This document shows, in pieces, positions 13,401-34,066 of a stretch of DNA of 64,000 bases (its first letter is position 1; each line of letters begins with the position of its first letter). Below the pieces are notes generated by a model. That model saw nothing but the letters and a program-made list of their open reading frames with translations. It did not search any database and had not been told where the DNA came from. Position numbers and translations under genes: made by a program. The stretch is taken from positions 1,116,001-1,180,000 of the forward strand of contig OY986949.1 in NCBI GenBank assembly GCA_963920595.1, given 5' to 3'. Origin of the DNA: Eimeria praecox (taxonomy: Eukaryota).

Positions 13401-13899
13401 AAGGGCTAGTACTGAACACGTAATGTTGCACACATACCAAATAAAGAGCAGAGTTATAGCTAAACCCGGAAGCGGGCATCTTTGAACGCTTGGATTTAAT
13501 GTATTTATAGACTATCCAATGCATCCTAAAACGAAAAATATGGTCTCTCCCGATGGAGTGCCGATGATCTCCTGCAAGCATCGTGCCCGTCCAAGTTGGA
13601 CAGCATGATTGGAAGTAGGCCTGTTCGGCTGCAGTAGTGTTTGGAGGAGGCCGAAATGAAAAATTCTAAAAGCTAAGCTGGCTTATTATCCGATAACTTT
13701 TTAACGCTTTGGCAGAGAATTATTCACACGACAACCCCAGGCATGCGGGGCTTCGGCCCATGGGGCTTGCCTGGGACGACGGGGCAAAGGGGCAGCAGCC
13801 ACTTCGCCATGTCCTAGTCCTTCATCGCGACTCCTGTGAAGCTGTGAATGTCTGCCCACAGCGCACTTTGTTGCCCTTTGGAAGCTTCGGTACAGGAAG

Positions 13900-15865: not shown

Positions 15866-16394
15866 TCGCTTCCGACACTGGCAACTGTGCTATAATTATA
15901 CGCGAGTTGCTGGGAGACTGTTCTGTATTTTGGGCAATTGGCCGACCGCTAGGCTATAGTTTTGCACCACCGGCCCGATTGCAATGTTTTCCAAACTAAT
16001 TTCAACTCCATAAGTCTTTGATACGATGCAAACAGCACTGGTGGGGCTGACCAAGCATTATTTTTTTTCTGCTGTGCATTAGCATTTGTCTGTGGTGAAT
16101 GCTGCTGCGCAGCTAGGACAAATATTGTCTTCGAGCTAAGCTACTTCGCTCGCGAGTGGATCTGCGTGAACTTTCGTGCTCCAAGGGTGTGTTTTTCTTG
16201 ACACCTCCAGTATCTCCTCCACGTGCTGTTTTTGTGCCGTGGGCGGTCGTGTGGTAGGTGAGATGAAAGCTTCACGGACGATGCATAGTTGAATGCAAGC
16301 ACAGCTGTCAAAGCAATATGCTTGGATTCTGGAACGCGCCGTGCATATTCTTTAAAGCGTGATCAGATGCCAGCAACTTCCACATATGCAGCGT

Positions 16395-16474
16395 ATGATG
16401 ATTGTTGAGCTCTTGACACCTCTTGATAGCACTTCCAAAGTGCACTGTTCGGTAACCTCAACTTTCTCTACTGA
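16395..16474 (+). ncRNA. Box C/D snoRNA, U60/snR48-like variant 1 (guide to LSU GAGGUGUCA)
   Basis: C box ATGATGA, guide TGACACCTC, internal stem GTTGAG/CTCAAC, D box CTGA at 16471-16474. Copy at 30226-30305. Confidence 0.7.
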
Positions 16475-16614
16475 TCCACGCTGCCACCCTAACATTTCCG
16501 ATGGGGTGTTGAACGGGAGGACAAACCTGCTTACCCTAGTCCGCCGCTGGCAACTGATATGCATTGCCGTGGTTGAAGATGGTTCTTGCTGCCTTAAACT
16601 TATCCTATCCAGCC

Positions 16615-16694
16615 GTGATGATAAACTTCTTTCCCCATCGGAAGCGCCTTAACGCTAGAAAGGAGATGGCGAACGAATTCGAAACTGTTTCTGA
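16615..16694 (+). ncRNA. Box C/D snoRNA, SNORD12/snR190-like (guide to LSU GGGGAAAGAAG)
   Basis: C box GTGATGA, guide CTTCTTTCCCC, D' CGGA, D box CTGA at 16691-16694. Copies at 21182-21261, 24476-24555, 27770-27849 (C box AAGATGA) and 30446-30525. Confidence 0.85.
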
Positions 16695-16754
16695 CTGGCC
16701 TTACATGTTGAAGGGATGTGTAACCATGCTTTTGCTCTGCTCGTTGCCTATTGG

Positions 16755-16819
16755 AAGATGAGATGCGTTTTCCACAGACCTGTTCTGAATACAACTAAAT
16801 GTGGATGCGAAAACTCTGA
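16755..16819 (+). ncRNA. Box C/D snoRNA, U25/snR56-like (SSU Gm1428-equivalent)
   Basis: C box AAGATGA. The 12-nt guide CACAGACCTGTT is complementary to SSU AACAGGUCUGUG and lies directly before D' CTGA (16785-16788); the D+5 rule selects the G of AACAG. D box at 16816-16819. Copies at 18028-18092, 21322-21386, 24616-24680, 27907-27971, 30586-30650. Confidence 0.9.
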
Positions 16820-16878
16820 CTTGAATAGGTTATGATCAAGTTGCTGCAGTGTGCAGTCGTTGCTATCTGTGTGCCTTA

Positions 16879-16963
16879 AGGATGAACTAAGTTCTACAAT
16901 CACGACGGTCTGCGGAAGGCTTGGGTCTTAACCTGAGCAGTGTCGAGAGTAGAACGATTCTGA
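16879..16963 (+). ncRNA. Box C/D snoRNA, U35/snR73-like (LSU Cm2959-equivalent)
   Basis: C box AGGATGA, guide TCACGACGGTCT (16900-16911) complementary to LSU AGACCGUCGUGA, D' CGGA, internal stem GTTCTAC/GTAGAAC, D box CTGA at 16960-16963. Copies at 18152-18236, 21446-21530, 24740-24824, 30710-30794; truncated copy at 28031-28109. Confidence 0.88.
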
Positions 16964-17057
16964 AGAGAAGCGTACATAGTTGTTGTGCGAGTTGTTCGTC
17001 GTGTAGGCGACCGGATTGTGCAAATTCAGTTGCCGAGCTCATAGTCTGAATTCACAC

Positions 17058-17209
17058 TCAGCGTGTAGCTGTTGCCTTCCCTATGTGGGTTGGTCTGTGT
17101 GCATTCAAGCGTCCACGCTCGGAAAAAAGAGCCTTTCCTCTCGTTCGCAGCGCATTAGGTGTCGCTTGACACTAACGTTGTGCGTTGCATCCATAAGGTC
17201 AGGACAACC
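17058..17209 (+). ncRNA. Box H/ACA snoRNA (3' pocket guides LSU AUGGA-U-UAACGAGA; human 28S Psi3801/ACA54-like site)
   Basis: 5' hairpin AGCGTG/CACGCT, H box AAAAAA at 17123-17128. The 3' hairpin has upper stem GCAGCGCA/TGCGTTGC and pocket arms TCTCGTT and TCCAT, 14 nt from ACA at 17204-17206. Copies at 18331-18482, 21625-21776, 24919-25070, 30889-31040. 5' end approximate. Confidence 0.78.
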
Positions 17210-17285
17210 TCCAGAAGCAGACTAGTAGTGTATGTTGTGGGTGTAGACCTTTGTTTTCGTGTGATTGTACTGCGGAGATGCTTTA

Positions 17286-17363
17286 GTGATGACCTATTAG
17301 ACCATCAAATTCCGAGGGTCTACGGATCCGTGGGGAGAATATTTAACTGCTTACCAAATCTGA
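17286..17363 (+). ncRNA. Box C/D snoRNA with a guide to LSU UUUGGUAAGCAG
   Basis: C box GTGATGA; 12-nt guide CTGCTTACCAAA one nt before D box CTGA at 17360-17363. Copies at 18559-18636, 21853-21930, 25147-25224, 31117-31194. Confidence 0.82.
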
Positions 17364-17884
17364 CGTAGAGTAGAGCGAATGAGCATGTAGAGGCTTATGT
17401 AGATATGTGCCAATGACGATATACTCAGCGCAGCACGTTACAAATTCATGAGCAGTGCGTGCGGTAATATCCGTTCGCTGCGCGTGTCAGTAGGCGTGCA
17501 ATATCGCGTACGAGGGATTTAGTTGGAGCCTGGGTTACCAGACTGCGAAGTCTGGTGTTTTCTTTTCAGTGTTCCCGTTCCCCCCTTGCAAACTAGCAAA
17601 GCTGATAAGGTATTATCGGATAGACTTCTTACCAGAGAATAAATGGTAGCAAGGTAGTGCCCGTTTACCAAGAGCCCACGTTTTATTCTTTGCACACTGT
17701 GCGTGGGTGTTTCATTGGCCTCGGGCGGAGATTGCCAGCATGCCTTTTGCTTATCGTGGACTTCCGCAAACAACGATGAGCTTCGCTGCATGCTTAAAGC
17801 TGATTGCGTAGCTGAGGATGCTGGGTATGCTTGTGTGCTGGCGAACGGTTTGTTATAATAGATGTGCGTTGCTTTTTAGGGTTG

Positions 17885-17957
17885 TTGATGAAATCTTTTG
17901 GTAACCTATGAGCTCTAGTACAGCTTCATGAGGTCTGTGTCAACATGAGATTGCTGA
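17885..17957 (+). ncRNA. Single-copy orphan box C/D snoRNA candidate
   Basis: C box TTGATGA, D'-like ATGA, C'-like ATGAGG, D box CTGA at 17954-17957, flanked by a GGGT/ACCC terminal stem. No guide target recognised. Confidence 0.5.
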
Positions 17958-18688
17958 TACCCATGTTCATGGAAATATAACCTACATGTTTGCGTAGGCA
18001 ACACTCCTTTCGCCGACTACCTGTTGGAAGATGAGATGCGTTTTCCACAGACCTGTTCTGAATACAACTAAATGTGGATGCGAAAACTCTGACTTGAATA
18101 GGTTATGATCAAGTTGCTGCAGTGTGCAGTCGTTGCTATCTGTGTGCCTTAAGGATGAACTAAGTTCTACAATCACGACGGTCTGCGGAAGGCTTGGGTC
18201 TTAACCTGAGCAGTGTCGAGAGTAGAACGATTCTGAAGAGAAGCGTACATAGTTGTTGTGCGAGTTGTTTTTCGTGTAGGCGACCGGATTGTGCAAATTC
18301 AGTTGCCGAGCTCATAGTCTGAATTCACACTCAGCGTGTAGCTGTTGCCTTCTCTATGTGGGTTGGTCTGTGTGCATTCAAGCGTCCACGCTCGGAAAAA
18401 AGAGCCTTTCCTCTCGTTCGCAGCGCATTAGGTGTCGCTTGACACTAACGTTGTGCGTTGCATCCATAAGGTCAGGACAACCTCCAGAAGCAGACTAGTA
18501 GTGCATGTTGTGGGTGTAGACCTTTGTTTTCGTGTGATTGTACTGCGGAGATGCTTTAGTGATGACCTATTAGACCATCAAATTCCGAGGGTCTACGGTT
18601 CCGTGGGGAGAATATTTAACTGCTTACCAAATCTGACGCAGAGTAGAGTGGATGAGCATGTAGAGGCTTATGTAGGTGGGTGCCCAGG

Positions 18689-18756
18689 ATGATGAAACCT
18701 TTGTTCTACCATCTTTCGGGGCATAATTATATTTGCTGAGGACGTAAAGTTTCTGA
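18689..18756 (+). ncRNA. Box C/D snoRNA, snR39B/SNORD2-like (LSU Gm805-equivalent)
   Basis: C box ATGATGA, 13-nt guide ACCATCTTTCGGG (18708-18720) complementary to LSU CCCGAAAGAUGGU, degenerate D' CATA, C'-like CTGAGGA, D box CTGA at 18753-18756. Copies at 21983-22050, 25277-25344, 31247-31314. Confidence 0.85.
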
Positions 18757-18806
18757 AAGCTGGGCCTACCACATATCTATTTGCTTTCTAATTTCTTAGC
18801 AAAGCC

Positions 18807-18914
18807 TTGATGAAACTGAGTATCTAGGAAGTGCCGTCTGAATGCGATTTGCCATGGGCAGTTCTTGCTTATGCGCGAACTTGCCTATTGGCGCATGCGG
18901 ATTGATATCTCTGA
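18807..18914 (+). ncRNA. Box C/D snoRNA, U49 (SNORD49)-like
   Basis: C box TTGATGA. Element TAGGAAGTGCCG (18825-18836) is complementary with one mismatch to LSU CGGCUCUUCCUA and matches the element I recall in U49. D' CTGA, internal hairpin GGGCAG/TTGCCT, D box at 18911-18914. Copies at 22101-22208, 25395-25502, 31365-31472. Confidence 0.82.
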
Positions 18915-19184
18915 GCAGGCTGCATTGCTTTCCGTGAATGCATTTAATTATGCTCTCAGTGTAGCACGTTGCAAATTCATGCGCAGTGCCTGCGGTAGTC
19001 TCCGTTCGCTGCGCGTGTCAGTAGGCGTGCAATATCGCGTACGAGGGATTTAGTTGGAGCCTGGGTTATCAGACTCCCAAGTCTGGTGCTTTCTTTTCAG
19101 TGTTCCCGTTCCCCCCTTGGAAATTAAAAAGATCATCGTGTTTGTGAAGGAGCACATGTGAATGTCTTCAACGCTGTGTGCGCG

Positions 19185-19260
19185 AGGATGAAACTGTACT
19201 GCCACCGCTGAATCTTGTGGTGAAGAGACAGTGAAAATAATCCATCAAATAAACTGCTGA
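19185..19260 (+). ncRNA. Box C/D snoRNA with a guide to LSU GGUGGUAGUA (U24 target region)
   Basis: C box AGGATGA, guide TACTGCCACC (one G-U pair) before D' CTGA at 19208-19211, C'-like GTGAAGA, D box CTGA at 19257-19260. Copies at 22479-22554, 25773-25848, 31743-31818. Confidence 0.72.
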
Positions 19261-19499
19261 ATGCCGCAAACATACTACGGACGATTGAGCAAATGATTTA
19301 TATTTATACATTGGGTAGCATGTGGTAGCCGCGAAGATGGTCAGGCAGCCGCAGATTGCCTTTTGGCTACGATTGCGCCCGCCTATTACCCATTCGCGGC
19401 AGATGAATGTCGCCTTTGGTGTATGCTTTGGTTGGACAGTCATTGGGCTTGTCGCAAGAGCCAGAGCATTTTCTGAAGTCGCACATGTTTTGAGCGTCG

Positions 19500-19579
19500 G
19501 CCCTTCATGTTCACTTTATATGCGAGGACATCGGAGATGGTGGAGTTGCATTTATAGACAAGAGAGGGCAAGGACAAAT
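19500..19579 (+). ncRNA. H/ACA-type hairpin candidate (pocket complementary to SSU 5' end CUUGUCUCAAAG; human Psi34/Psi36 region)
   Basis: Lower stem GCCCTT/GAGGGC, upper stem ATATGC/GCATTTAT, arms CTTT and GACAAG, ACA at 19574-19576. No canonical upstream H box seen. Confidence 0.5.
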
Positions 19580-19592
19580 GAGTCTGGCAAAT

Positions 19593-19669
19593 ATGATGAC
19601 TATCTTAGGACACCCATGACGCTTGCCTGGCGCTGCGTATGAATTCCCAAGCATATTCGTACTGCCTGA
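19593..19669 (+). ncRNA. Double-guide box C/D snoRNA: U58-like guide plus U41/snR51-like guide
   Basis: C box ATGATGA. Guide 1 ATCTTAGGACACC (19602-19614) before D' ATGA pairs with LSU GGUGUCCUAAG. Guide 2 TATTCGTACTG (19654-19664) before D box CTGA pairs with LSU CAGUACGAAUA. Copies at 22887-22963, 26181-26257, 32151-32227. Confidence 0.9.
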
Positions 19670-19734
19670 AGAGCCACGCTTTTAGGGTTTGTGTTTTCTG
19701 TAGTTGTCTTTTTCACATGGTCCGCCGCATTCGT

Positions 19735-19795
19735 AGGATGATCTTCACTTTGGTCTGTGTTTCTGAAAACAATTTGAAGTTACTTACTTTTCTGA
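19735..19795 (+). ncRNA. Box C/D snoRNA candidate (possible guide to LSU GAAUACAGACC)
   Basis: C box AGGATGA, GGTCTGTGTT before D' CTGA at 19763-19766, C'-like TTGAAG, D box CTGA at 19792-19795, terminal stem GCATT/AATGC. Copies at 23029-23089, 26323-26383, 32293-32353. Confidence 0.68.
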
Positions 19796-19853
19796 GAAAT
19801 GCTGCGGCATGCATTGCTTTCGTATACAGCGAGTTTCTCTCTTATGGAATAAG

Positions 19854-20000
19854 TGCCCTTCTCTGGGTATGGCGGCGCCGTCTGTGTAGTCGGTGCTGTA
19901 GCCAAATCACGGGGGGCTAAAGAGAGCTGTGGCCTTCGCGTTAATCGCAGCGAACCCGAAAGGTTGTGGGTGATAGCTGTTTCATGCCGCGTTGACAGTT
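19854..20000 (+). ncRNA. Box H/ACA snoRNA candidate (5' pocket: LSU Psi2191-equivalent, snR32-like; 3' pocket: SSU GUGAAAC-U-GCGAA)
   Basis: Hairpin 1 GCCCTT/GGGGGC has arms CTGGGTA and AATCAC pairing around GUGAUU-U-C-UGCCCAG. The hinge AAAGAGA is a non-canonical H box. Hairpin 2 TGTGGC/GCCGCG has arms TTCG and GTTTCA; ACA at 19995-19997. Copies at 23148-23294, 26442-26588 and about 32410-32556. Confidence 0.65.
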
Positions 20001-20759
20001 TCCACTTTCTAATGCTGTTGGGGGCTGGGGCATGCGGTGCCTGGTCTTGAACAAGGACTTGTAAGTCTTCCGGCATGTCCCGTGGCGTTCCTTGCCATAG
20101 TCTCGCCATACCTGTATGTGTGAATGACCACAGTTAGCCTAGCTTGGTCAGAAGCGGTTTGCGTTATTTCCGCATTTGTCGCTCTTGTAGTGCTAGGGAT
20201 AGCATTTCCGCATGCCTTCCCGTCTGTCCTTTTGATTGGGCCTTTTTCTGACGCCCTGGACAGCCCGGCAGCTCGGTACAGCTATTCGCTTTCAAGCATG
20301 TGAATATGATAATTGCTGTACTTCCTTCCCTGCGAACACAACTATTGTTGTTCGAGGGCAACTCCTGCTTAATCCATAGCTGTAGGATCTGTAGTATTAT
20401 GGTGCTGTCTTTAGGGAAACAGGAAGAATGATTTTGCTTGTTAGTGCTGAATGCTTGTTATAGTTCCGTAGTTTTTGTAGTCTACATTGAAGTGCCTTTT
20501 ACTGCAGCCTTGTGCTGAACAGTTGTCCTGAACAAGCTCGAGCTCATTTCTACTTAGTGGCGGCGTGTGTAGTGAATGAGCGGTGATTCGAATATTCCCC
20601 CACTTCAGCGCATGATGCAGTCGTTTGAAGACCGCTTTTGCAAGACATGCACCAGCGTATGCGAGGCTGCAGTACTTATGGTGGGTGGAGGAGGTAGAGG
20701 AAGTGGTGAACGTACAATGCTGGTCATGATTCGCTTGTTGAACGAAGCTTCGCATGCTA

Positions 20760-20824
20760 GGGATGATTGCAATGCTACTTCGGGTAATTTGCATCTGAAT
20801 AACTGATGTCAGCATTGTGTCTGA
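20760..20824 (+). ncRNA. Box C/D snoRNA, U16/snR87-like (SSU Am436-equivalent)
   Basis: C box GGGATGA, guide GGGTAATTTGC (20782-20792) complementary to SSU GCAAAUUACCC, D' CTGA at 20795-20798 (D+5 selects the first A), internal stem CAATGCT/AGCATTG, D box at 20821-20824. Copies at 24054-24118, 27348-27412. Confidence 0.86.
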
Positions 20825-20964
20825 ATGCACACGCGCTTCGAAGCTTTTGACTGTCCATATTTACGCGCCCATATAGTTGTGTTCCAGTGGGGAGTTGGCA
20901 AATGTATAGAGCGCAGTGGAGCATTCCTTTGTGCGGCATCAAAGTTTGCATGCTGCCAGCCAGC

Positions 20965-21035
20965 GGGATGAAAGAAGCACCTGACACCTCTAAGGTGAAG
21001 TAACTCTAATGATCAGGAAATGCTTCTTCTACTGA
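20965..21035 (+). ncRNA. Box C/D snoRNA, U60/snR48-like variant 2
   Basis: C box GGGATGA, guide CTGACACCTCTA (20981-20992) complementary to LSU UAGAGGUGUCAG, internal stem AGAAGCA/TGCTTCT, D box CTGA at 21032-21035. Copies at 24259-24329, 27553-27623. Confidence 0.82.
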
Positions 21036-24000
21036 GGCTATATATCGAGGGTACTTTGCAGCGTGGTAATCGCTTGTGTAAGCTGCTTTTTGCCTCCCCA
21101 AATGCTGGCAGTGCGCTGGATGCGCCTGGAAGTGTATGCAGTCAGAAAGCGAGGAGACTGCTCAGTGCGTGTCGGCTCTGTAAGATGACAACTTTCTTTC
21201 CCCATCGGAAGCGCCTTAACGCTAGAAAGGAGATGGCGAACGAATTCGAAACTGTTTCTGACTGGCCCTAAATGCTGATGGGATATGTAATCATGCTTTT
21301 GCTCTGCTCGTTGCCTATTGGAAGATGAGATGCGTTTTCCACAGACCTGTTCTGAATACAACTAAATGTGGATGCGAAAACTCTGACTTGAATAGGTTAT
21401 GATCAAGTTGCTGCAGTGTGCAGTCGTTGCTATCTGTGTGCCTTAAGGATGAACTAAGTTCTACAATCACGACGGTCTGCGGAAGGCTTGGGTCTTAACC
21501 TGAGCAGTGTCGAGAGTAGAACGATTCTGAAGAGAAGCGTACATAGTTGTTGTGCGAGTTGTTCGTCTTGTAGGCGACCGGATTGTGCAAATTCAGTTGC
21601 CGAGCTCATAGTCTGAATTCACACTCAGCGTGTAGCTGTTGCCTCCCCTATGTAGGTTGGTCTGTGTGCATTCAAGCGTCCACGCTCGGAAAAAAGAGCC
21701 TTTCCTCTCGTTCGCAGCGCATTAGGTGTCGCTTGACACTAACGTTGTGCGTTGCATCCATAAGGTCAGGACAACCTCCAGAAGCAGACTAGTAGTGCAT
21801 GTTGTGGGTGTAGACCTTTGTTTTCGTGTGATTGTACTGCGGAGATGCTTTAGTGATGACCTATTAGACCATCAAATTCCGAGGGTCTACGGATCCGTGG
21901 GGAGAATATTTAACTGCTTACCAAATCTGACGCAGAGTAGAGTGGATGAGCATGTAGAGGCTTATGTAGGTGGGTGCCCAGGATGATGAAACCTTTGTTC
22001 TACCATCTTTCGGGGCATAATTATATTTGCTGAGGACGTAAAGTTTCTGAAAGCTGGGCCTACCACATATCTATTTGCTTTCTAATTTCTTAGCAAAGCC
22101 TTGATGAAACTGAGTATCTAGGAAGTGCCGTCTGAATGCGATTTGCCATGGGCAGTTCTTGCTTATGCGCGAACTTGCCTATTGGCGCATGCGGATTGAT
22201 ATCTCTGAGCAGGCTGCATTGCTTTCCGTGAATGCATTTAATTATGCTCTCAGTGTAGCACGTTGCAAATTCATGCGCAGTGCCTGCGGTAGTCTCCGTT
22301 CGCTGCGCGTGTCAGTAGGCGTGCAATATCGCGTACGAGGGATTTAGTTGGAGCCTGGGTTATCAGACTCCCAAGTCTGGTGCTTTCTTTTCAGTGTTCC
22401 CGTTCCCCCCTTGGAAATTAAAAAGATCATCGTGTTTGTGAAGGAGCACATGTGAATGTCTTCAACGCTGTGTGCGCGAGGATGAAACTGTACTGCCACC
22501 GCTGAATCTTGTGGTGAAGAGACAGTGAAAATAATCCATCAAATAAACTGCTGAATGCCGCAAACATACTACGGACGATTGAGCAAATGATTTATATTTA
22601 TACATTGGGTAGCATGTGGTAGCCGCGAAGATGGTCAGGCAGCCGCAGATTGCCTTTTGGCTACGATTGCGCCCGCCTATTACCCACTCGCGGCAGATGA
22701 ATGTCGCCTTTGGTGTATGCTTTGGTTGGACAGTCATTGGGCTTGTCGCAAGAGCCAGAGCATTTTCTGAAGTCGCACATGTTTTGAGCGTCGGCCCTTC
22801 ATGTTCACTTTATATGCGAGGACATCGGAGATGGTGGAGTTGCATTTATAGACAAGAGAGGGCAAGGACAAATGAGTCTGGCAAATATGATGACTATCTT
22901 AGGACACCCATGACGCTTGCCTGGCGCTGCGTATGAATTCCCAAGCATATTCGTACTGCCTGAAGAGCCACGCTTTTAGGGTTTGTGTTTTCTGTAGTTG
23001 TCTTTTTCACATGGTCCGCCGCATTCGTAGGATGATCTTCACTTTGGTCTGTGTTTCTGAAAACAATTTGAAGTTACTTACTTTTCTGAGAAATGCTGCG
23101 GCATGCATTGCTTTCGTATACAGCGAGTTTCTCTCTTATGGAATAAGTGCCCTTCTCTGGGTATGGCGGTGCCGTCTGTGTAGTCGGTGCTGTAGCCAAA
23201 TCACGGGGGGCTAAAGAGAGCTGTGGCCTTCGCGTTAATCGCAGCGAACCCGAAAGGTTGTGGGTGATAGCTGTTTCATGCCGCGTTGACAGTTTCCACT
23301 TTCTAATGCTGTTGGGGGCTGGGGCATGCGGTGCCTGGTCTTGAACAAGGACTTGTAAGTCTTCCGGCATGTCCCGTGGCGTTCCTTGCCATAGTCTCGC
23401 CATACCTGTATGTGTGAATGACCACAGTTAGCCTAGCTTGGTCAGAAGCGGTTTGCGTTATTTCCGCATTTGTCGCTCTTGTAGTGCTAGGGATAGCATT
23501 TCCGCATGCCTTCCCGTCTGTCCTTTTGATTGGGCCTTTTTCTGACGCCCTGGACAGCCCGGCAGCTCGGTACAGCTATTCGCTTTCAAGCATGTGAATA
23601 TGATAATTGCTGTACTTCCTTCCCTGCGAACACAACTATTGTTGTTCGAGGGCAACTCCTGCTTAATCCATAGCTGTAGGATCTGTAGTATTATGGTGCT
23701 GTCTTTAGGGAAACAGGAAGAATGATTTTGCTTGTTAGTGCTGAATGCTTGTTATAGTTCCGTAGTTTTTGTAGTCTACATTGAAGTGCCTTTTACTGCA
23801 GCCTTGTGCTGAACAGTTGTCCTGAACAAGCTCGAGCTCATTTCTACTTAGTGGCGGCGTGTGTAGTGAATGAGCGGTGATTCGAATATTCCCCCACTTC
23901 AGCGCATGATGCAGTCGTTTGAAGACCGCTTTTGCAAGACATGCACCAGCGTATGCGAGGCTGCAGTACTTATGGTGGGTGGAGGAGGTAGAGGAAGTGG

Positions 24001-27000
24001 TGAACGTACAATGCTGGTCATGATTCGCTTGTTGAACGAAGCTTCGCATGCTAGGGATGATTGCAATGCTACTTCGGGTAATTTGCATCTGAATAACTGA
24101 TGTCAGCATTGTGTCTGAATGCACACGCGCTTCGAAGCTTTTGACTGTCCATATTTACGCGCCCATATAGTTGTGTTCCAGTGGGGAGTTGGCAAATGTA
24201 TAGAGCGCAGTGGAGCATTCCTTTGTGCGGCATCAAAGTTTGCATGCTGCCAGCCAGCGGGATGAAAGAAGCACCTGACACCTCTAAGGTGAAGTAACTC
24301 TAATGATCAGGAAATGCTTCTTCTACTGAGGCTATATATCGAGGGTACTTTGCAGCGTGGTAATCGCTTGTGTAAGCTGCTTTTTGCCTCCCCAAATGCT
24401 GGCAGTGCGCTGGATGCGCCTGGAAGTGTATGCAGTCAGAAAGCGAGGAGACTGCTCAGTGCGTGTCGGCTCTGTAAGATGACAACTTTCTTTCCCCATC
24501 GGAAGCGCCTTAACGCTAGAAAGGAGATGGCGAACGAATTCGAAACTGTTTCTGACTGGCCCTAAATGCTGATGGGATATGTAATCATGCTTTTGCTCTG
24601 CTCGTTGCCTATTGGAAGATGAGATGCGTTTTCCACAGACCTGTTCTGAATACAACTAAATGTGGATGCGAAAACTCTGACTTGAATAGGTTATGATCAA
24701 GTTGCTGCAGTGTGCAGTCGTTGCTATCTGTGTGCCTTAAGGATGAACTAAGTTCTACAATCACGACGGTCTGCGGAAGGCTTGGGTCTTAACCTGAGCA
24801 GTGTCGAAAGTAGAACGATTCTGAAGAGAAGCGTACATAGTTGTTGTGCGAGTTGTTTTTCGTGTAGGCGACCGGATTGTGCAAATTCAGTTGCCGAGCT
24901 CATAGTCTGAATTCACACTCAGCGTGTAGCTGTTGCCTCCCCTATGTAGGTTGGTCTGTGTGCATTCAAGCGTCCACGCTCGGAAAAAAGAGCCTTTCCT
25001 CTCGTTCGCAGCGCATTAGGTGTCGCTTGACACTAACGTTGTGCGTTGCATCCATAAGGTCAGGACAACCTCCAGAAGCAGACTAGTAGTGCATGTTGTG
25101 GGTGTAGACCTTTGTTTTCGTGTGATTGTACTGCGGAGATGCTTTAGTGATGACCTATTAGACCATCAAATTCCGAGGGTCTACGGATCCGTGGGGAGAA
25201 TATTTAACTGCTTACCAAATCTGACGCAGAGTAGAGTGGATGAGCATGTAGAGGCTTATGTAGGTGGGTGCCCAGGATGATGAAACCTTTGTTCTACCAT
25301 CTTTCGGGGCATAATTATATTTGCTGAGGACGTAAAGTTTCTGAAAGCTGGGCCTACCACATATCTATTTGCTTTCTAATTTCTTAGCAAAGCCTTGATG
25401 AAACTGAGTATCTAGGAAGTGCCGTCTGAATGCGATTTGCCATGGGCAGTTCTTGCTTATGCGCGAACTTGCCTATTGGCGCATGCGGATTGATATCTCT
25501 GAGCAGGCTGCATTGCTTTCCGTGAATGCATTTAATTATGCTCTCAGTGTAGCACGTTGCAAATTCATGCGCAGTGCCTGCGGTAGTCTCCGTTCGCTGC
25601 GCGTGTCAGTAGGCGTGCAATATCGCGTACGAGGGATTTAGTTGGAGCCTGGGTTATCAGACTCCCAAGTCTGGTGCTTTCTTTTCAGTGTTCCCGTTCC
25701 CCCCTTGGAAATTAAAAAGGTCATCGTGTTTGTGAAGGAGCACATGTGAATGTCTTCAACGCTGTGTGCGCGAGGATGAAACTGTACTGCCACCGCTGAA
25801 TCTTGTGGTGAAGAGACAGTGAAAATAATCCATCAAATAAACTGCTGAATGCCGCAAACATACTACGGACGATTGAGCAAATGATTTATATTTATACATT
25901 GGGTAGCATGTGGTAGCCGCGAAGATGGTCAGGCAGCCGCAGATTGCCTTTTGGCTACGATTGCGCCCGCCTATTACCCACTCGCGGCAGATGAATGTCG
26001 CCTTTGGTGTATGCTTTGGTTGGACAGTCATTGGGCTTGTCGCAAGAGCCAGAGCATTTTCTGAAGTCGCACATGTTTTGAGCGTCGGCCCTTCATGTTC
26101 ACTTTATATGCGAGGACATCGGAGATGGTGGAGTTGCATTTATAGACAAGAGAGGGCAAGGACAAATGAGTCTGGCAAATATGATGACTATCTTAGGACA
26201 CCCATGACGCTTGCCTGGCGCTGCGTATGAATTCCCAAGCATATTCGTACTGCCTGAAGAGCCACACTTTTAGGGTTTGTGTTTTCTGTAGTTGTCTTTT
26301 TCACATGGTCCGCCGCATTCGTAGGATGATCTTCACTTTGGTCTGTGTTTCTGAAAACAATTTGAAGTTACTTACTTTTCTGAGAAATGCTGCGGCATGC
26401 ATTGCTTTCGTATACAGCGAGTTTCTCTCTTATGGAATAAGTGCCCTTCTCTGGGTATGGCGGTGCCGTCTGTGTAGTCGGTGCTGTAGCCAAATCACGG
26501 GGGGCTAAAGAGAGCTGTGGCCTTCGCGTTAATCGCAGCGAACCCGAAAGGTTGTGGGTGATAGCTGTTTCATGCCGCGTTGACAGTTTCCACTTTCTAA
26601 TGCTGTTGGGGGCTGGGGCATGCGGTGCCTGGTCTTGAACAAGGACTTGTAAGTCTTCCGGCATGTCCCGTGGCGTTCCTTGCCATAGTCTCGCCATACC
26701 TGTATGTGTGAATGACCACAGTTAGCCTAGCTTGGTCAGAAGCGGTTTGCGTTATTTCCGCATTTGTCGCTCTTGTAGTGCTAGGGATAGCATTTCCGCA
26801 TGCCTTCCCGTCTGTCCTTTTGATTGGGCCTTTTTCTGACGCCCTGGACAGCCCGGCAGCTCGGTACAGCTATTCGCTTTCAAGCATGTGAATATGATAA
26901 TTGCTGTACTTCCTTCCCTGCGAACACAACTATTGTTGTTCGAGGGCAACTCCTGCTTAATCCATAGCTGTAGGATCTGTAGTATTATGGTGCTGTCTTT

Positions 27001-28117
27001 AGGGAAACAGGAAGAATGATTTTGCTTGTTAGTGCTGAATGCTTGTTATAGTTCCGTAGTTTTTGTAGTCTACATTGAAGTGCCTTTTACTGCAGCCTTG
27101 TGCTGAACAGTTGTCCTGAACAAGCTCGAGCTCATTTCTACTTAGTGGCGGCGTGTGTAGTGAGTGAGCGGTGATTCGAATATTCCCCCACTTCAGCGCA
27201 TGATGCAGTCGTTTGAAGACCGCTTTTGCAAGACATGCACCAGCGTATGCGAGGCTGCAGTACTTATGGTGGGTGGAGGAGGTAGAGGAAGTGGTGAACG
27301 TACAATGCTGGTCATGATTCGCTTGTTGAACGAAGCTTCGCATGCTAGGGATGATTGCAATGCTACTTCGGGTAATTTGCATCTGAATAACTGATGTCAG
27401 CATTGTGTCTGAATGCACACGCGCTTCGAAGCTTTTGACTGTCCATATTTACGCGCCCATATAGTTGTGTTCCAGTGGGGAGTTGGCAAATGTATAGAGC
27501 GCAGTGGAGCATTCCTTTGTGCGGCATCAAAGTTTGCATGCTGCCAGCCAGCGGGATGAAAGAAGCACCTGACACCTCTAAGGTGAGGTAACTCTAATGA
27601 TCAGGAAATGCTTCTTCTACTGAGGCTATATATCGAGGGTACTTTGCAGCGTGGTAATCGCTTGTGTCAGCTGCTTTTTGCCTCCCCAAATGCTGGCAGT
27701 GCGCTGGATGCGCCTGGAAGTGTATGCAGTCAGAAAGCGAGGAGACTGCTCAGTGCGTGTCGGCTCTGTAAGATGACAACTTTCTTTCCCCATCGGAAGC
27801 GCCTTAACGCTAGAAAGGAGATGGCGAACGAATTCGAAACTGTTTCTGACTGGCCCTAAATGCTGATGGGATATGTAATCATGCTTTTGCTCGGTGTGCC
27901 TACTGAAAGATGAGATGCGTTTTCCACAGACCTGTTCTGAATACAACTAAATGTGGATGCGAAAACTCTGACTTGAATAGGTTATGATCAAGTTGCTGCA
28001 GTGTGCAGTCGTTGCTATCTGTGTGCCTTAAGGATGAACTAAGTTCTACAATCACGACGGTCTGCGGAAGGCTTGGGTCTTAACCTGAGCAGTGTCGAAA
28101 GTAGAACGACTCAGGGG

Positions 28118-29696
28118 ATGGTGTTTGGCAAATGAATAGGGTTGCTTCAAGTGCTTAGAAGACAAGTATCGGAAGCGAAGAGTAAGCGGCCGCTGGCGTT
28201 TCAATAGAGGGTGTTCAATCACGACGTGCGGGTCGCATGGAGTTCTATCCGCAGAGAAAAATATGGTTGGTGGTTTTACTCTGGGTGGTGCTGACTTGGC
28301 ACCCCTTTGCTCGGTAGTCCTGTAATTTTATGTGTGGTTGATGCTCCCTCTGCGTGCTTCTCACGTATTTGGGTGCGAATGCTGATGCCCTTCGTTTCCA
28401 TGCGCGGTGCATATGCATTTCGGTTTTTCTTGGCGTAATGCACTTCCTTATGGACAACTGCTGGATTCTGGGGGTTTGCCACTACCTAAAGTGAGGTTTT
28501 GGCTGCATGCAGTTGCTTTCCGAAAGACATGGCGCGCGTCTGGCTTTCTAAGTGTCAGCGCTCTGCTGCGCTTAGTCCTACGGGCGCATAGAAGTCCTTC
28601 GGCAGAATCACTGTGGCGACTTAAACCGACGCTCGATCAGAGGCGATGATTTCTGGTCATTTCGTAGACGAGCGCCGACCTGTCTACGCCAACATTCCAG
28701 CTTTTGGAGGTAGTGCCTTTTTTTTAGAGCTTGATAGTGGGCAACTTATGCGTCAATGGATTTTACTTGTTCATGTCTGTTTTGCAGAGGGGAAGACGGA
28801 TTATGCTGCGCGGAGGCGATTGACTCTTCAGGATAAGAACAAGTACAATGCGCCTAAGTATCGCTTTGTTGTGCGCGTGACCAACGCGCGCGTGCTCTGC
28901 CAGGTGATGCACGCTCCAATGCAATGAGAGAGGCTTGTATGCAGCGCCGACTCTAAGGAGCTTACTCCCTAAGGAAAGCCCACGGGCGAGGAGTACCACA
29001 TTGAGGAGGTATCCGAGGAGCGTTCTGGATGTAGGGATTGTATCTACTACCGCTGGTACGTTGCGCCTATCGTAATGCCTCGCATTTTCAGGGGTTCTGT
29101 TTTAGAGGCGCTGCTGCTAACAAACGGCCTGCTACGCGCATTTTGTGTGATCTTCCAGGTAACCGAGTCTTAGGTGCTATGAAGGGGGCGTGTGATGGAG
29201 GGTTGCACATTCCCCACAGCAACAAACGATTCCCTGGATTCACAAAGGGCGAAGAAGGCGCTGAGGTTTCCTACAGTCCTGAGGTGCACCGTGCGCGTAT
29301 TCACGGGCTGCATGTTGCCGAGTATATGCGCACTCTGAAGGAGGAGGATCCAGAAAGGTACCAGACTCAGTTCTCTGCTTGCATCCGCAATAGAGTGGAT
29401 GCTGACAACATCGAGAAGATGTACCAAGAGGCATTCCAGAAGATCCGCGCCAACCCAGGTTCAGCCAAGTAGGAGGTCAAGAGAGTCCGCCAGGGTTCCA
29501 TGATCAAAACTGCCACGGAAGGAGCGCGTTTTGAAGAAGGTAAGGATAGTGTGGGGCATCGACTGCATCAGTCAATGGTATTCTGGTTTTCGCCCGTTCT
29601 TCCCTTTTGGGATATGTATCCTGATGCGCTGTTGCGTGTTGTGGTGTGTCTTCTCAGATTCAAATGGTGGCGGAAAAGATGGCAGAGGATGCGTAA
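28118..29696 (+). pseudogene. RPL5: RPL5 pseudogene (duplicated, introns retained)
   Basis: Eroded exon 1 relic at 28118-28181. Exon 2 from 28788 has GGA>TGA at 28925-28927. A deletion joins exon 2 to exon 3; there is an in-frame TAG at 29470-29472 and a deletion in exon 4. The last exon is intact to TAA 29696. Confidence 0.93.
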
Positions 29697-32600
29697 TCGC
29701 TTCCGACACTGGCAACTGTGCTATAATTATACGCGAGTTGCTGGGAGACTGTTCTGTATTTTGGGCAATTGGCCGACCGCTAGGCTATAGTTTTGCACCA
29801 CCGGCCCGATTGCAATGTTTTCCAAACTAATCTCGACTCCATAAGTCTTTGATACGATGCAAACAGCACTGGTGGGGCTGACCAAGCATTATTTTTTTTC
29901 TGCTGTGCATCAGCATTTGTCTGTGGTGAATGCTGCTGCGCAGCTAGGACAAATATTGTCTTCGAGCTAAGCTACTTCGCTCGCGAGTGGATCTGCGTGA
30001 ACTTTCGTGCTCCAAGGGTGTGTTTTTCTTGACACCTCCAGTATCTCCTCCACGTGCTGCTTTTGTGCCGTGGGCGGTCGTGTGGTAGGTGAGATGAAAG
30101 CTTCCCGGACGATGCATAGTTGAATGCAAGCACAGCTGTCAAAGCAATATGCTTGGATTCTGGAACGCGCCGTGCATATTCTTTAAAGCGTGATCAGATG
30201 CCAGCAACTTCCACATATGCAGCGTATGATGATTGTTGAGCTCTTGACACCTCTTGATAGCACTTCCAAAGTGCACTGTTCGGTAACCTCAACTTTCTCT
30301 ACTGATCCACGCTGCCACCCTAACATTTCCGATGGGGTGTTGAACGGGAGGACAAACCTGCTTACCCTAGTCCGCCGCTGGCAACTGATATGCATTGCTG
30401 TGGTTGAAGATGGTCCTTGCTGCCTTAAACTTATCCTATCCAGCCGTGATGATAAACTTCTTTCCCCATCGGAAGTGCCTTAACGCTAGAAAGGAGATGG
30501 CGAACGAATTCGAAACTGTTTCTGACTGGCCTTACATGCTGATGGGATGTGTAACCATGCTTTTGCTCTGCTCGTTGCCTATTGGAAGATGAGATGCGTT
30601 TTCCACAGACCTGTTCTGAATACAACTAAATGTGGATGCGAAAACTCTGACTTGAATAGGTTATGGTCAAGTTGCTGCAATGTGCAGTCGTTGCTATCTG
30701 TGTGCCTTAAGGATGAACTAAGTTCTACAATCACGACGGTCTGCGGAAGGCTTGGGTCTTAACCTGAGCAGTGTCGAGAGTAGAACGATTCTGAAGAGAA
30801 GCGTACATAGTTGTTGTGCGAGTTGTTCGTCGTGTAGGCGACCGGATTGTGCAAATTCAGTTGCCGAGCTCATAGTCTGAATTCACACTCAGCGTGTAGC
30901 TGTTGCCTTCCCTATGTGGGTTGGTCTGTGTGCATTCAAGCGTCCACGCTCGGAAAAAAGAGCCTTTCCTCTCGTTCGCAGCGCATTAGGTGTCGCTTGA
31001 CACTAACGTTGTGCGTTGCATCCATAAGGTCAGGACAACCTCCAGAAGCAGACTAGTAGTGCATGTTGTGGGTGTAGACCTTTGTTTTCGTGTGATTGTA
31101 CTGCGGAGATGCTTTAGTGATGACCTATTAGACCATCAAATTCCGAGGGTCTACGGATCCGTGGGGAGAATATTTAACTGCTTACCAAATCTGACGCAGA
31201 GTAGAGTGGATGAGCATGTAGAGGCTTATGTAGGTGGGTGCCCAGGATGATGAAACCTTTGTTCTACCATCTTTCGGGGCATAATTATATTTGCTGAGGA
31301 CGTAAAGTTTCTGAAAGCTGGGCCTACCACATATCTATTTGCTTTCTAATTTCTTAGCAAAGCCTTGATGAAACTGAGTATCTAGGAAGTGCCGTCTGAA
31401 TGCGATTTGCCATGGGCAGTTCTTGCTTATGCGCGAACTTGCCTATTGGCGCATGCGGATTGATATCTCTGAGCAGGCTGCATTGCTTTCCGTGAATGCA
31501 TTTAATTATGCTCTCAGTGTAGCACGTTGCAAATTCATGCGCAGTGCCTGCGGTAGTCTCCGTTCGCTGCGCGTGTCAGTAGGCGTGCAATATCGCGTAC
31601 GAGGGATTTAGTTGGAGCCTGGGTTATCAGACTCCCAAGTCTGGTGCTTTCTTTTCAGTGTTCCCGTTCCCCCCTTGGAAATTAAAAAGATCATCGTGTT
31701 TGTGAAGGAGCACATGTGAATGTCTTCAACGCTGTGTGCGCGAGGATGAAACTGTACTGCCACCGCTGAATCTTGTGGTGAAGAGACAGTGAAAATAATC
31801 CATCAAATAAACTGCTGAATGCCGCAAACATACTACGGACGATTGAGCAAATGCTTTATATTTATACATTGGGTAGCATGTGGTAGCCGCGAAGATGGTC
31901 AGGCAGCCGCAGATTGCCTTTTGGCTACGATTGCGCCCGCCTATTACCCACTCGCGGCAGATGAATGTCGCCTTTGGTGTATGCTTTGGTTGGACAGTCA
32001 TTGGGCTTGTCGCAAGAGCCAGAGCATTTTCTGAAGTCGCACATGTTTTGAGCTTCGGCCCTTCATGTTCACTTTACATGCGAGGACATCGGAGATGGTG
32101 GAGTTGCATTTATAGACAAGAGAGGGCAAGGACAAATGAGCCTGGCAAATATGATGACTATCTTAGGACACCCATGACGCTTGCCTGGCGCTGCGTATGA
32201 ATTCCCAAGCATATTCGTACTGCCTGAAGAGCCACGCTTTTAGGGTTTGTGTTTTCTGTAGTTGTCTTTTTCACATGGTCCGCCGCATTCGTAGGATGAT
32301 CTTCACTTTGGTCTGTGTTTCTGAAAACAATTTGAAGTTACTTACTTTTCTGAGAAATGCTGCGGCATGCATTGCTTTCGTATACAGCGAGTTTCTCTTG
32401 TGGAATAAGTGCCCTTCTCTGGGTATGGCGGCGCCGTCTGTGTAGTCGGTGCTGTAGCCAAATCACGGGGGGCTAAAGAGAGCTGTGGCCTTCGCGTTAA
32501 TCGCAGCGAACCCGAAAGGTTGTGGGTGATAGCTGTTTCATGCCGCGTTGACAGTTTCCACGTTCAAATGCTGTTGGGGGCTGGGGCATGTGGTGCCTGG

Positions 32601-33300
32601 TCTTCAACAAGGACTTGTAATTCTTCCAGCATGTCCCGTGGCGTTCCTTGCCATAGTCTCGCCATACCTGTATGTGTGAATGACCACAGTTAGCCTAGCT
32701 TGGTCAGAAGCGGTTTGCGTTATTTCCGCATTTGTCGCTCTTGTAGTGCTAGGGATAGCATTTCCGCATGCCTTCCCGTCTGTCCTTTTGATTGGGCCTT
32801 TTTCTGACGCCCTGGACAGCCCGGCAGCTCGGTACAGCTATTCGCTTTCAAGCATGTGAATATGATAATTGCTGTACTTCCTTCCCTGCGAACACAACTA
32901 TTGTTGTTCGAGGGCAACTTTTGCTTAATCCATAGCTGTAGGATCTGTAGTATTATGGTGCTGTCTTTAGGGAAACAGGAAGAATGATTTTGCTTGTTAG
33001 TGCTGAATGCTTGTTATAGTTCCGTAGTTTTTGTAGTCTACATTGAAGTGCCTTTTACTGCAGCCTTGTCCTGAATAGTTGTCCTGAACAAGCTCGAGCT
33101 CATTTCTACTTAGTGGCGGCGTTTGTAGTGAGTGGGCAGTGATTCGAATATTCCCCCACTTCAGCGCACGATGCAGTCGTTTGAAGACCGCTTTTGCAAG
33201 ACATGCATCAGCGTATGCGAGGCTGCAGTACTTATGGTGGGTGGAGGAGGTACGGGAAGTGAAGTTTCTAAGCTGGTCATGATTCCCTTGCTGAACGAAG
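28450..33300 (+). repeat. Segmental duplicate of RPL5 (intron 1 to 3' flank) plus the snoRNA cluster
   Basis: Matches about 14340-17400 (offset 14114 to 13831) and then about 18660-20745 (offset about 12558). Similarity ends near 33300. Confidence 0.93.
28534..28697 (+). ncRNA. Intronic H/ACA snoRNA copy in the RPL5 pseudogene
   Basis: Identical by eye to 14420-14583 (offset 14114). Confidence 0.78.
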
Positions 33301-34066
33301 CACTGGCAGCTCGAAAGTGCTGTTGCGCGGTCGAATCTATGCCAGTTTAGGCTACTCGTTATACCAGTCACCTGTTCATGCTTGGTTAGCTGCGTATGCA
33401 GTTCAGCGTTCGACGAAGGCTATAGACAGCGAAGTGTTTCAAGAACAACGCTGTAGCGCTCCAACATGATGGCTATCAAGGTTCCTGTCTTTGCTGTTAT
33501 GCGACAACTGGGCTCTGGCTGTGCTACTGTGGCAGTCGCGTGAGTAGTGTTCACGAAATTCGGTGCATACGGCAATATACTTATACGGACATTGGAATAT
33601 CTTGACGTGAGAAGAATGTCCCGTAACGCTCCAGGTACAGCATTCTGATTGCTAAAACCCTGCTTGTGCATTATCAAATGCTACCCGCGAATCTCCCAGT
33701 ATCCTATTCCTTGGATCCACGATCGCTGAGCTACACCAAAATGGGAGAGATCACGTGAAGAAGGCTGCCTCCTATGGCTGTTCTCTATCCACACACAATG
33801 CTGATGGTGACTGCTGTTCTCTCTGCTGACTCAAGAACACGCAAGCCGTCTTAAGGGATCGCTCGGTATTCTCTAGTTGCGCTTCGCGTCACTTGCGGCT
33901 TACAATCGTGGATAGCTTCTGCACGCGTCCCAATAGAGAATCCCTCTCCGCTTCTGCAAGATGGGCATACACAAGCTATGCAGCTTTGGGCGATGCATAC
34001 TGTGCGGTTCCATGGCAGCCAAAGCAATGGCAGAACATCTAAATATCTGCAGTCGCTGCCTGACAC

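What the first reader, a model, noticed from the sequence alone, without database searches (positions are those of the whole stretch)
16395..33300. Hidden, amplified cluster of about 15 snoRNA families downstream of RPL5
Seen: about 17 kb with no credible ORF carries same-strand C-box...CTGA cassettes and hairpin-H-hairpin-ACA cassettes every 100-300 nt. Established knowledge (recalled): 10-13 nt elements placed just before D/D' boxes are antisense to conserved rRNA motifs. For most, the D+5 rule lands on known 2'-O-methyl sites (U25/snR56, U35/snR73, snR39B, SNORD12/snR190, U58, U41/snR51, U16/snR87, U60/snR48). Inference: a plant- or trypanosome-style polycistronic snoRNA cluster in a coccidian, possibly co-transcribed with a ribosomal protein gene. 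I do not know of such an array being described in this group.
Basis: partly seen in the sequence, partly recalled or inferred. Interest (0 to 1): 0.93.

Follow-up and report, generated by a model that had tools for sequence, protein, structure and literature searches.

The report
Amplified snoRNA cluster behind Eimeria RPL5
Behind a ribosomal protein gene of an Eimeria-type parasite lies a tandemly repeated block of about 16 predicted small-RNA genes whose guide sequences match ribosomal RNA; they are likely made as one long transcript and cut apart, a trypanosome-like layout that enlarges a small cluster already known at the same gene in malaria parasites.

Summary
Confirmed. Downstream of an Eimeria-type RPL5 gene lie 12 well-supported box C/D and 4 H/ACA guide cassettes plus 3-4 weaker ones, all on one strand, median spacer 62 nt. 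Rfam calls none at its threshold, but 7 of 33 CTGA boxes carry a 12-nt or longer rRNA duplex against 0 of 17 on the other strand. The 17 kb is about 4.2 kb of distinct sequence repeated in 3294-bp units, interrupted by a decayed RPL5 copy; DNA-run depths fit real amplification. RPL5 mRNA contigs end about 360 nt before the first cassette, so the cluster is not in the mature mRNA. It is less new than thought: Plasmodium has a proven two-snoRNA transcript behind RPL5, and 5 of its 6 RPL5/RPL7a-linked guides recur here. Expression, precursor and modifications are untested. The scan holds no look-alike sequence; it noted a similar tandem layout in another genome.

The parts
13901..16032 (+). Intact RPL5 gene, 5 exons; mRNA 3' end at about 16024-16032
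   Evidence: Exon 4 is 96% identical to a protein named Eimeria acervulina RPL5; four GT..AG joints and 3' ends in RNA contigs
16033..16390 (+). Gap between RPL5 mRNA end and first snoRNA; candidate promoter or read-through leader
   Evidence: 3 substitutions in 358 nt against the second block, whose RPL5 5' end is decayed; function inferred
16391..16478 (+). c1, box C/D, snR48/U60-type D' guide (LSU); D element without clear target
   Evidence: Rfam snoR1 guide alignment, E 1.3; register; 2 copies
16611..16698 (+). c2, box C/D double guide: SNORD12/snR190-type D' guide; D guide 12/12 to a variable 18S segment (A459 of L001)
   Evidence: Rfam SNORD12 same register, E 0.76; duplexes; 5 copies
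16752..16821 (+). c3, snR56/U25-type guide (SSU Gm1428 equivalent)
   Evidence: Rfam snR56 alignment; 12/12 duplex to L001 1433-1444; 6 copies
16876..16966 (+). c4, U35/snR73-type guide (LSU Cm2959 equivalent)
   Evidence: Rfam plasmodium_snoR20 listed at E 0.58; 13-nt duplex; guide and inner stem match PFS17 by eye; 6 copies
17057..17209 (+). H1, box H/ACA; 3' pocket 7+5 bp to LSU U four nt 3' of the H4 target
   Evidence: label human ACA54 site recalled; 5 copies
17281..17366 (+). c5, box C/D double guide: D' to SSU U121 (Z17/SNORD4-type), D to an LSU G with no counterpart in the part of the Arabidopsis table read
   Evidence: 12/12 and 12/12 duplexes; chicken table lists U121 with a 5' element; 5 copies
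17424..17595 (+). H2a, H/ACA-like with AAA end box; 3' pocket 4+7 bp to the LSU U 15 nt before the U35 site (snR37-type, label recalled); paralogue H2b at 18955-19126
   Evidence: pocket kept in both 92%-identical paralogues, homology ends 3 nt after the box; no canonical H box
17880..17962 (+). c7, C/D-like cassette with terminal stem, no credible target (orphan candidate)
   Evidence: boxes in sequence; stem and failed target search; 1 copy
18020..21313 (+). First 3294-bp repeat unit (c3,c4,H1,c5,c8,c9,H2b,c10,H3,c12,c13,H4,H5,c14,c16,c17,c2)
   Evidence: self-BLAST 99.3-99.6%; map
18682..18759 (+). c8, snR39B-type guide (LSU Gm805 equivalent)
   Evidence: Rfam ceN70 alignment; 14-nt duplex
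18802..18917 (+). c9, U49-type guide (LSU Cm4426 human equivalent), with the family's internal mismatch
   Evidence: Rfam SNORD49 E 0.0013, same register
19181..19263 (+). c10, D guide to SSU U116 (U42-type); D' element unresolved
   Evidence: 15-nt duplex; chicken table lists U116 with a 3' element; no Rfam match
19327..19488 (+). H3, two strong hairpins with H box and ACA, no credible rRNA target (orphan candidate)
   Evidence: no Rfam match
19588..19672 (+). c12, double guide: U58-type D', U41/snR51-type D
   Evidence: Rfam SNORD58 E 0.092; 13- and 11-nt duplexes; U41 label recalled
19731..19798 (+). c13, U18-type guide (LSU Am649 equivalent)
   Evidence: Rfam SNORD18 full-length, 34.5 bits, E 0.0016
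19855..20000 (+). H4, H/ACA; 3' pocket 10+7 bp to LSU (yeast 2314/snR86 label recalled); H box non-canonical
   Evidence: best pocket of all regions scanned, 16.5
20133..20283 (+). H5, H/ACA double guide: pockets 7+4 bp to SSU U307 and U363 of L001
   Evidence: chicken table lists 18S-367 for U71/snoR86, mapping by number only
20295..20456 (+). c14, long C/D-like fold with terminal stem and degenerate C box, no target (weak candidate)
   Evidence: fold; target search failed
20756..20827 (+). c16, U16/snR87-type guide (SSU Am436 equivalent)
   Evidence: Rfam plasmodium_snoR24 and snoZ101 alignments; 11-nt duplex; 3 copies
20961..21038 (+). c17, diverged paralogue of c1 (snR48/U60-type)
   Evidence: boxes and guide kept, middle diverged; same register as c1; 3 copies
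21314..24607 (+). Second repeat unit
   Evidence: 10 differences from unit 1
24608..28112 (+). Third repeat unit plus start of a further one (c3, c4), cut at 28112
28113..29700 (+). Decayed RPL5 copy: exon 1 about 32% substituted, stop codon in exon 2, large deletions
   Evidence: junction bridged by a DNA contig 28069-28482
30222..33301 (+). Second cluster block (c1, c2, then one unit lacking c16, c17)
   Evidence: 98.2-98.4% to units 1-3; 22 of 30 differences fall in spacers, edge excluded

Best explanation
The region is a tandemly amplified block of about 16 to 20 predicted snoRNA genes whose guide elements pair with rRNA, and it is likely transcribed by RNA polymerase II as one precursor that starts behind the RPL5 mRNA end and is cut and trimmed into single guides. 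Shown: boxes, strand bias, guide-rRNA duplexes, shared register with known families, repeat structure, RPL5 mRNA end. Inferred from established snoRNA biology: C/D guides load fibrillarin/Nop56/Nop58/Snu13 and methylate the ribose paired to the fifth base before D or D'; H/ACA guides load Cbf5 and convert the unpaired U. Inferred, untested: one precursor (spacers of median 62 nt leave little room for promoters), its own promoter in the 360-nt gap, endonucleolytic cuts in spacers by an unknown enzyme followed by exonucleolytic trimming. History, inferred: a small RPL5-linked cluster shared with Plasmodium gathered more guides; an old duplication copied gene plus cluster, the gene copy decayed while the guides were kept; unequal crossing-over multiplied a 3294-bp unit. 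Odds: snoRNA genes 0.95, polycistronic 0.85, own promoter rather than RPL5 read-through about 0.7.
For: Box bias. 16 of 16 Rfam sub-threshold hits are + strand C/D families; same-register alignments for SNORD18, snR56, SNORD49, SNORD12, snoR1, plasmodium_snoR24, snoZ101. Duplex enrichment 7 of 33 vs 0 of 17; pockets 10 of 84 vs 1-3 per control. A pattern made of two window guides found one stretch in the metagenome collection, a full eukaryotic 18S. In the most diverged copy 22 of 30 differences lie in spacers, p=5e-4. DNA run X1: flank depth 47-52, unit contig 250, part shared by both unit types 350, two-copy part 105. Five of six Plasmodium RPL5/RPL7a-linked guides recur, against 1 of the 12 others, Fisher p=0.004; PFS11-PFS12 are co-transcribed and not in the RPL5 UTR (PMC2656528).
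Against: No cassette reaches an Rfam gathering score. No small RNA, precursor or modification was observed. LSU targets come from unrelated eukaryotes (L029, L026 and fragments), and L001 is not shown to be this species' 18S. Many C boxes are non-canonical (AGATGA, GGATGA) and H2 and H4 lack a canonical H box. Units 2 and 3 show no spacer bias in their few differences (4 of 10 and 11 of 20). Most H/ACA candidates do not fold better than shuffles (2 of 5 at z below -2). The second block's kept gap may reflect gene conversion, not a promoter. One H/ACA candidate (20560-20650) carries 5 of the 8 in-feature differences and was dropped.
Confidence: 0.6

Rival explanations
1. The same snoRNAs are made from RPL5 transcription: polymerase reads on past the poly(A) site, or a longer RPL5 isoform carries the array in a 3' intron, as Plasmodium RPL7a does for some snoRNAs.
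For: Same strand, 360 nt apart; a donor-like AG|GTGAG sits at 16258 just before c1; Plasmodium PFS9 lies in the RPL7a 3' UTR and two snoRNAs in its 3'-UTR intron (PMC2811010).
Against: RPL5 contigs of three runs end at 16024-16032, one with an A-rich loose end, and no joint leaves 16257; Plasmodium PFS11 gave no RT-PCR product with RPL5; 17 kb of read-through would be needed for the last block.
Confidence: 0.25
2. The snoRNAs are clustered but transcribed singly or in small groups from internal promoters, as suggested for Tetrahymena clusters.
For: Tetrahymena clusters keep upstream elements before inner genes (PMC3273799); a few spacers here are 130-300 nt.
Against: Median spacer 62 nt, against 169-421 nt in Tetrahymena; only 9 runs of 5 or more T in 5.3 kb, not one per cassette.
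Confidence: 0.07
3. One working cluster exists; the extra units are an assembly artefact or silent copies.
For: Units 1-3 are 99.3-99.6% identical; the best DNA holder may be the source of the assembly.
Against: Unit contig depths in X1 are 5 and 7 times the flank, more than the 4 and 5 copies assembled, and array depth is also raised in X3, a second study (the tool warns depth is no copy number); differences in the fourth copy avoid the cassettes.
Confidence: 0.08

Closest known systems
Plasmodium falciparum snoRNAs PFS8-PFS13 at RPL5 (PF14_0230) and RPL7a (PF14_0231) (PMC2656528; parts 1-4 of 6 read)
   Same: Same host gene RPL5, downstream and same strand; guides for Gm1428, Am436, Gm805, Cm4426 and Am649 recur; PFS11-PFS12 shown by RT-PCR to be one transcript outside the RPL5 UTR.
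   Different: There the C/D set is 3 per gene and the paper reports mostly single-copy genes and two clusters of two; here 16-20 mixed guides in 1-6 copies, RPL7a not found in the ORFs scanned nearby, no guide for Am974 found.
Trypanosomatid snoRNA clusters (PMC3273796, passages read; also cited in PMC2656528)
   Same: Interspersed C/D and H/ACA genes, repeated clusters, short spacers, polycistronic Pol II transcription with an unknown cutting enzyme.
   Different: Trypanosome H/ACA-like RNAs are single hairpins (recalled); here they are two-hairpin. Polycistrony is the rule in trypanosomes, not in coccidia. No sequence homology of the cluster is claimed.
Plant and Euglena polycistronic snoRNA clusters (recalled; plant clusters cited in PMC2656528; the Euglena paper was not in my search listing)
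   Same: Many different families in one unit, duplicated.
   Different: Tied here to a ribosomal protein gene and its decayed duplicate; near-identical 3.3-kb tandem units.
Tetrahymena snoRNA clusters (PMC3273799, passages read)
   Same: Alveolate intergenic clusters.
   Different: Nearly all C/D, spacers 169-421 nt, many with own upstream elements, no tandem amplification in the passages read.

Membership tests
Box C/D guide snoRNA | Box C near 5' end and box D at 3' end, 60-120 nt apart | tested here: met
   12 cassettes end in CTGA; C boxes canonical in c1, c2, c5, c8, c12, variant in the rest
Box C/D guide snoRNA | 10-21 nt antisense element to rRNA just before D or D' | tested here: met
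   7 of 33 vs 0 of 17 and shuffles mean 0.23; per-cassette duplexes 9-15 nt
Box C/D guide snoRNA | Fifth-base rule lands on a site known to be methylated elsewhere | tested here: met
   Same register as Rfam consensus for SNORD18, snR56, SNORD49, SNORD12, plasmodium_snoR24; U116, U121 by number; two strong guides (c2 D, c5 D) have no known counterpart in the tables read
Box C/D guide snoRNA | Terminal stem closing the C/D motif | tested here: inconclusive
   Flank duplexes of -5 to -19 kcal/mol for 13 of 13 cassettes, no shuffled control
Box C/D guide snoRNA | Rfam family gathering score | tested here: not met
   Best 34.5 bits vs 41 for SNORD18; so these are filed as functional counterparts, not Rfam members
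Box C/D guide snoRNA | Stable small RNA bound by fibrillarin; target methylated | not testable with these tools
   No small-RNA or modification data held
Box H/ACA guide snoRNA | Hairpin-H-hairpin-ACA architecture | tested here: inconclusive
   Present for H1, H3, H5 but not above controls; H2 and H4 lack a canonical H box
Box H/ACA guide snoRNA | Two-part pocket pairing around a U 14-16 nt from the box | tested here: met
   10 of 84 boxes vs 1-3 in five controls; H4 10+7 bp, H1 7+5, H5 7+4 twice, H2 4+7; H3 has none
Polycistronic snoRNA cluster (plant/trypanosome type) | Different families, one strand, short spacers | tested here: met
   19 cassettes mapped, 25 spacers, median 62 nt
Polycistronic snoRNA cluster (plant/trypanosome type) | One precursor spanning several genes | tested here: inconclusive
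   Only short low-depth RNA contigs, equal to background
Polycistronic snoRNA cluster (plant/trypanosome type) | Cluster repeated in the genome | tested here: met
   77 cassette copies in the window; depth steps in DNA run X1
Plasmodium RPL5-linked snoRNA locus (orthology) | Same host gene and shared guide families | tested here: met
   RPL5; 5 of 6 vs 1 of 12 families, p=0.004; comparison of sequences by eye and Rfam
Plasmodium RPL5-linked snoRNA locus (orthology) | Conserved in intermediate lineages (Toxoplasma, Cyclospora, piroplasms) | not testable with these tools
   No eukaryotic genomes held; no G000

The most novel reading that the evidence does not exclude
An ancestral apicomplexan RPL5-linked snoRNA locus became, in Eimeria, a trypanosome-like polycistron that gathers a large share of the rRNA guides, is amplified in tandem with variable copy number, outlived a duplicate of its host gene, and includes guides for lineage-specific marks such as a methyl group in a variable 18S segment; one locus would then set much of the parasite's rRNA modification.
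Probability: 0.4. Interest if true: 0.65.

Novelty: new variant of a known kind. Interest (0 to 1): 0.5.

Why it matters
Coccidian snoRNAs are almost unannotated: Rfam misses every cassette here. [quoted passage not shown] The components and the layout type are known, so this is a strong annotation and evolution result, not a new mechanism.

Tried and rejected
No whole genome is held, so the species' own rRNA, other clusters and RPL7a could not be searched. No RNA holder is on record. RNA-type run X4 has three low-depth contigs in the cluster (16369-16617, about 18530-18700, 19083-19276; depth 2-4 vs 236 for RPL5 mRNA), but equal depths occur at 41000-47900: no verdict on expression. A coccidian LSU was not found: L002 gave no Rfam match, plasmids held only bacterial/archaeal matches in the rows shown; unrelated eukaryotic LSUs were used. 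A C/D reading of 19401-19476 was dropped because it overlaps H3's H box and hairpin. Candidates c6 (17774), c15 (20575) and H6 (20560-20650) were dropped: weak or no target, H6 collects mutations. Several box coordinates were off by one and were redone. c10 D', c1 D, c17 D, c7, c14 and H3 have no credible target; best hits lie in variable rRNA parts and look like chance. An intron-per-snoRNA host was rejected: few donor- and acceptor-like sites, not flanking cassettes. Rfam found nothing at 19170-19500. Hoeppner and Poole (PMC3511168) has no mention of Toxoplasma, Plasmodium or RPL5 in its main text. Chakrabarti 2007 was not held under the id I recalled.


Full report
Setting. Exon 4 of the gene at 13901-15866 is 96% identical to a protein named Eimeria acervulina RPL5, 90% to E. 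brunetti and 83% to Cyclospora; Pfam agrees. RNA-type contigs show four GT..AG joints, and the mRNA contigs of three runs end at 16024, 16027 and 16032, one with an A-rich loose end. The organism is thus an Eimeria-type coccidian. No whole genome is held.

Observation. RTGATGA occurs 17 times on + and never on - in 16395-33300; GATGA 62 vs 4; the flanks show no bias. All 17 matches mark copies of five cassettes. Rfam reports only a tRNA at gathering level, but all 16 matches up to E 10 in 13000-21400 are C/D snoRNA families on +, the best SNORD49 (E 0.0013) and SNORD18 (E 0.0016). Narrower scans added SNORD12 and snoR1 and plasmodium_snoR24; 19170-19500 gave nothing.

Targets. I needed rRNA from a tool. 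A pattern built from two window guides (c16 D' and c2 D) matched one stretch of the metagenome collection, a full eukaryotic 18S (L001); that it is eimeriid rests on recalled motifs, and it need not be this species. A full eukaryotic LSU and 5.8S came from L029, an unrelated organism. On the non-repeated 4.2 kb, 7 of 33 CTGA boxes have an upstream duplex of 12 nt or more with at most one G-U, against 0 of 17 on -, 2 of 150 and 1 of 150 boxes sampled outside, and mean 0.23, max 2, in 30 rRNA shuffles. With fixed registers the fifth-base rule gives: c3 SSU G1437 (snR56), c16 SSU A441 (U16), c10 SSU U116, c5 SSU U121, c2 SSU A459; and LSU sites for c1/c17 (snR48/U60), c2 (SNORD12/snR190), c4 (U35), c8 (snR39B), c9 (U49), c12 (U58 and U41), c13 (U18), c5 D. 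Family labels rest on Rfam alignments where cited in the parts list, on the chicken table for U42 and Z17 (18S U116 by a 3' element, U121 by a 5' element, the same sides as here; PMC2653536, passages), on name equivalences in PMC2780460 (passages) and PMC2656528, and on recall for U41 and the exact U58 and U60 bases. Two perfect 12-nt guides, c2 D and c5 D, have no counterpart in the part of the Arabidopsis/human/yeast table read (PMC8583080, section 5 part 1 of 2).

H/ACA. The fold alone is no evidence: 4 hits on +, 4 on -, 1-8 per control strand, and only 2 of 5 candidates fold at z below -2. Pockets are enriched: 10 of 84 boxes reach 10 bp, against 3 of 190, 3 of 117, 1 of 120, 2 of 113 and 1 of 144, and mean 2.9, max 5, in 12 shuffles; some of the ten are chance hits inside C/D cassettes, and two are paralogues. 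H4 has a 10+7 bp pocket, H1 7+5 to a U four bases further on, H5 two 7+4 pockets to SSU U307 and U363, H2 4+7 to the U 15 bases before the U35 site. The names snR86, ACA54, snR49 and snR37 for these sites are recalled. H3 folds well but has no target.

Repeat structure. The array is one short variant (16617-18019), three 3294-bp units at 99.3-99.6% identity, a cut at 28112, a decayed RPL5 copy, and a second block to 33301 at about 98.3%: 77 copies of 19 cassettes. The RPL5 copy is 32% substituted in exon 1, has a stop in exon 2 and large deletions, while the 3' UTR, gap and cassettes differ by about 1%. In the fourth copy 35 of 43 differing columns lie in spacers; without the 13 at the ragged end, 22 of 30 (p=5e-4). 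Units 2 and 3 show no such bias. In DNA run X1 flank contigs have depth 47-52, the unit contig 250, the part shared by both unit types 350, the two-copy part 105, the short-variant joints about 100, and one contig bridges the junction at 28112. These steps fit 5 long and 2 short units, one more of each than assembled; the tool warns that depth is no copy number, and X1 may be the assembly's source.

Mechanism. Shown: sequence features above. From established knowledge: C/D and H/ACA RNPs methylate and pseudouridylate the paired rRNA bases. Inferred: one Pol II precursor, since 25 spacers have a median of 62 nt and T-runs do not follow each cassette; a start behind the RPL5 mRNA end, since that mRNA stops 360 nt short and the gap is kept at 99% in front of the second block; cuts in spacers by an unknown nuclease. 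RNA contigs in the cluster are at background depth and decide nothing. Read-through from RPL5 remains the main rival.

Comparison. PMC2656528 (parts 1-4 of 6 read) places PFS10, PFS11 and PFS12 in or behind P. falciparum RPL5 and PFS8, PFS9 and PFS13 behind the neighbouring RPL7a, shows PFS11-PFS12 to be one transcript outside the RPL5 UTR, and calls most parasite snoRNAs single-copy. Five of those six families recur here, against 1 (PFS17) of the other 12 (Fisher p=0.004; matching by eye and by Rfam, chosen after seeing the table). Trypanosome clusters are mixed, repeated and polycistronic (PMC3273796, passages); Tetrahymena clusters are looser (PMC3273799, passages). Cryptosporidium papers list about ten snoRNAs, without a cluster in the passages shown (PMC9465071, PMC12246861). 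Ten searches (listings only) showed no paper on coccidian snoRNA clusters; the library lacks most subscription papers, Chakrabarti 2007 was not held, one supplement of PMC2811010 could not be searched, and ToxoDB annotation was not checked.

Verdict. A real, previously unannotated-looking and unusually large cluster of ordinary guide snoRNAs, in a layout known from trypanosomes and plants and rooted in a locus known from Plasmodium: a new variant of a known kind, interest 0.5.

Noticed in passing
window 14401-14673 (RPL5 intron 1) and its copy near 28515-28790: This intron part differs by 1 base in 273 between the intact and the decayed RPL5 copy, while the part before it differs by 14% and exon 1 by 32%. 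It holds a C-box-like motif and ends near a run of 8 T; no Rfam match, folding not above shuffles (z -0.9). Hidden RNA, splicing element or recent gene conversion.
   Followed up: partly
window 13125-13220, - strand: Canonical C box with hairpins about 700 nt upstream of RPL5, divergent; no credible rRNA guide.
   Followed up: partly
window 10051-10235, + strand: Canonical C box with a CTGA about 180 nt on; no guide of 10 nt or more.
   Followed up: partly
window 19355-19375 (H3, first hairpin tip): The tip resembles U2 snRNA stem-loop I in the sense direction (recalled, not tested); may be chance.
   Followed up: no
window 33594-35564, - strand: A spliced transcript (joint 33953-34090) of an ORF of 484 aa without Pfam family runs towards the array and ends about 290 nt from it.
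   Followed up: no
window 44082-44281: The 200-N gap is skipped by contigs of three runs (joint 44075-44282), so the two sides likely abut.
   Followed up: no
window 41100-41340: Short element with high depth and many loose ends in DNA runs: a dispersed repeat.
   Followed up: no
window 61003-61641 (-) and 62495-62567 (-): ORF with Rpp20/Alba match (RNase P/MRP subunit-like) next to a tRNA gene.
   Followed up: no
window 3391-5283 (+) and 6239-7954 (-): Thioredoxin-domain (PDI-like) and RCC1-repeat genes upstream; no RPL7a among the 25 ORFs scanned.
   Followed up: no
run X4, record 8: A second RPL5 mRNA about 87% alike with the same joints, likely from another coccidian in the sample.
   Followed up: no
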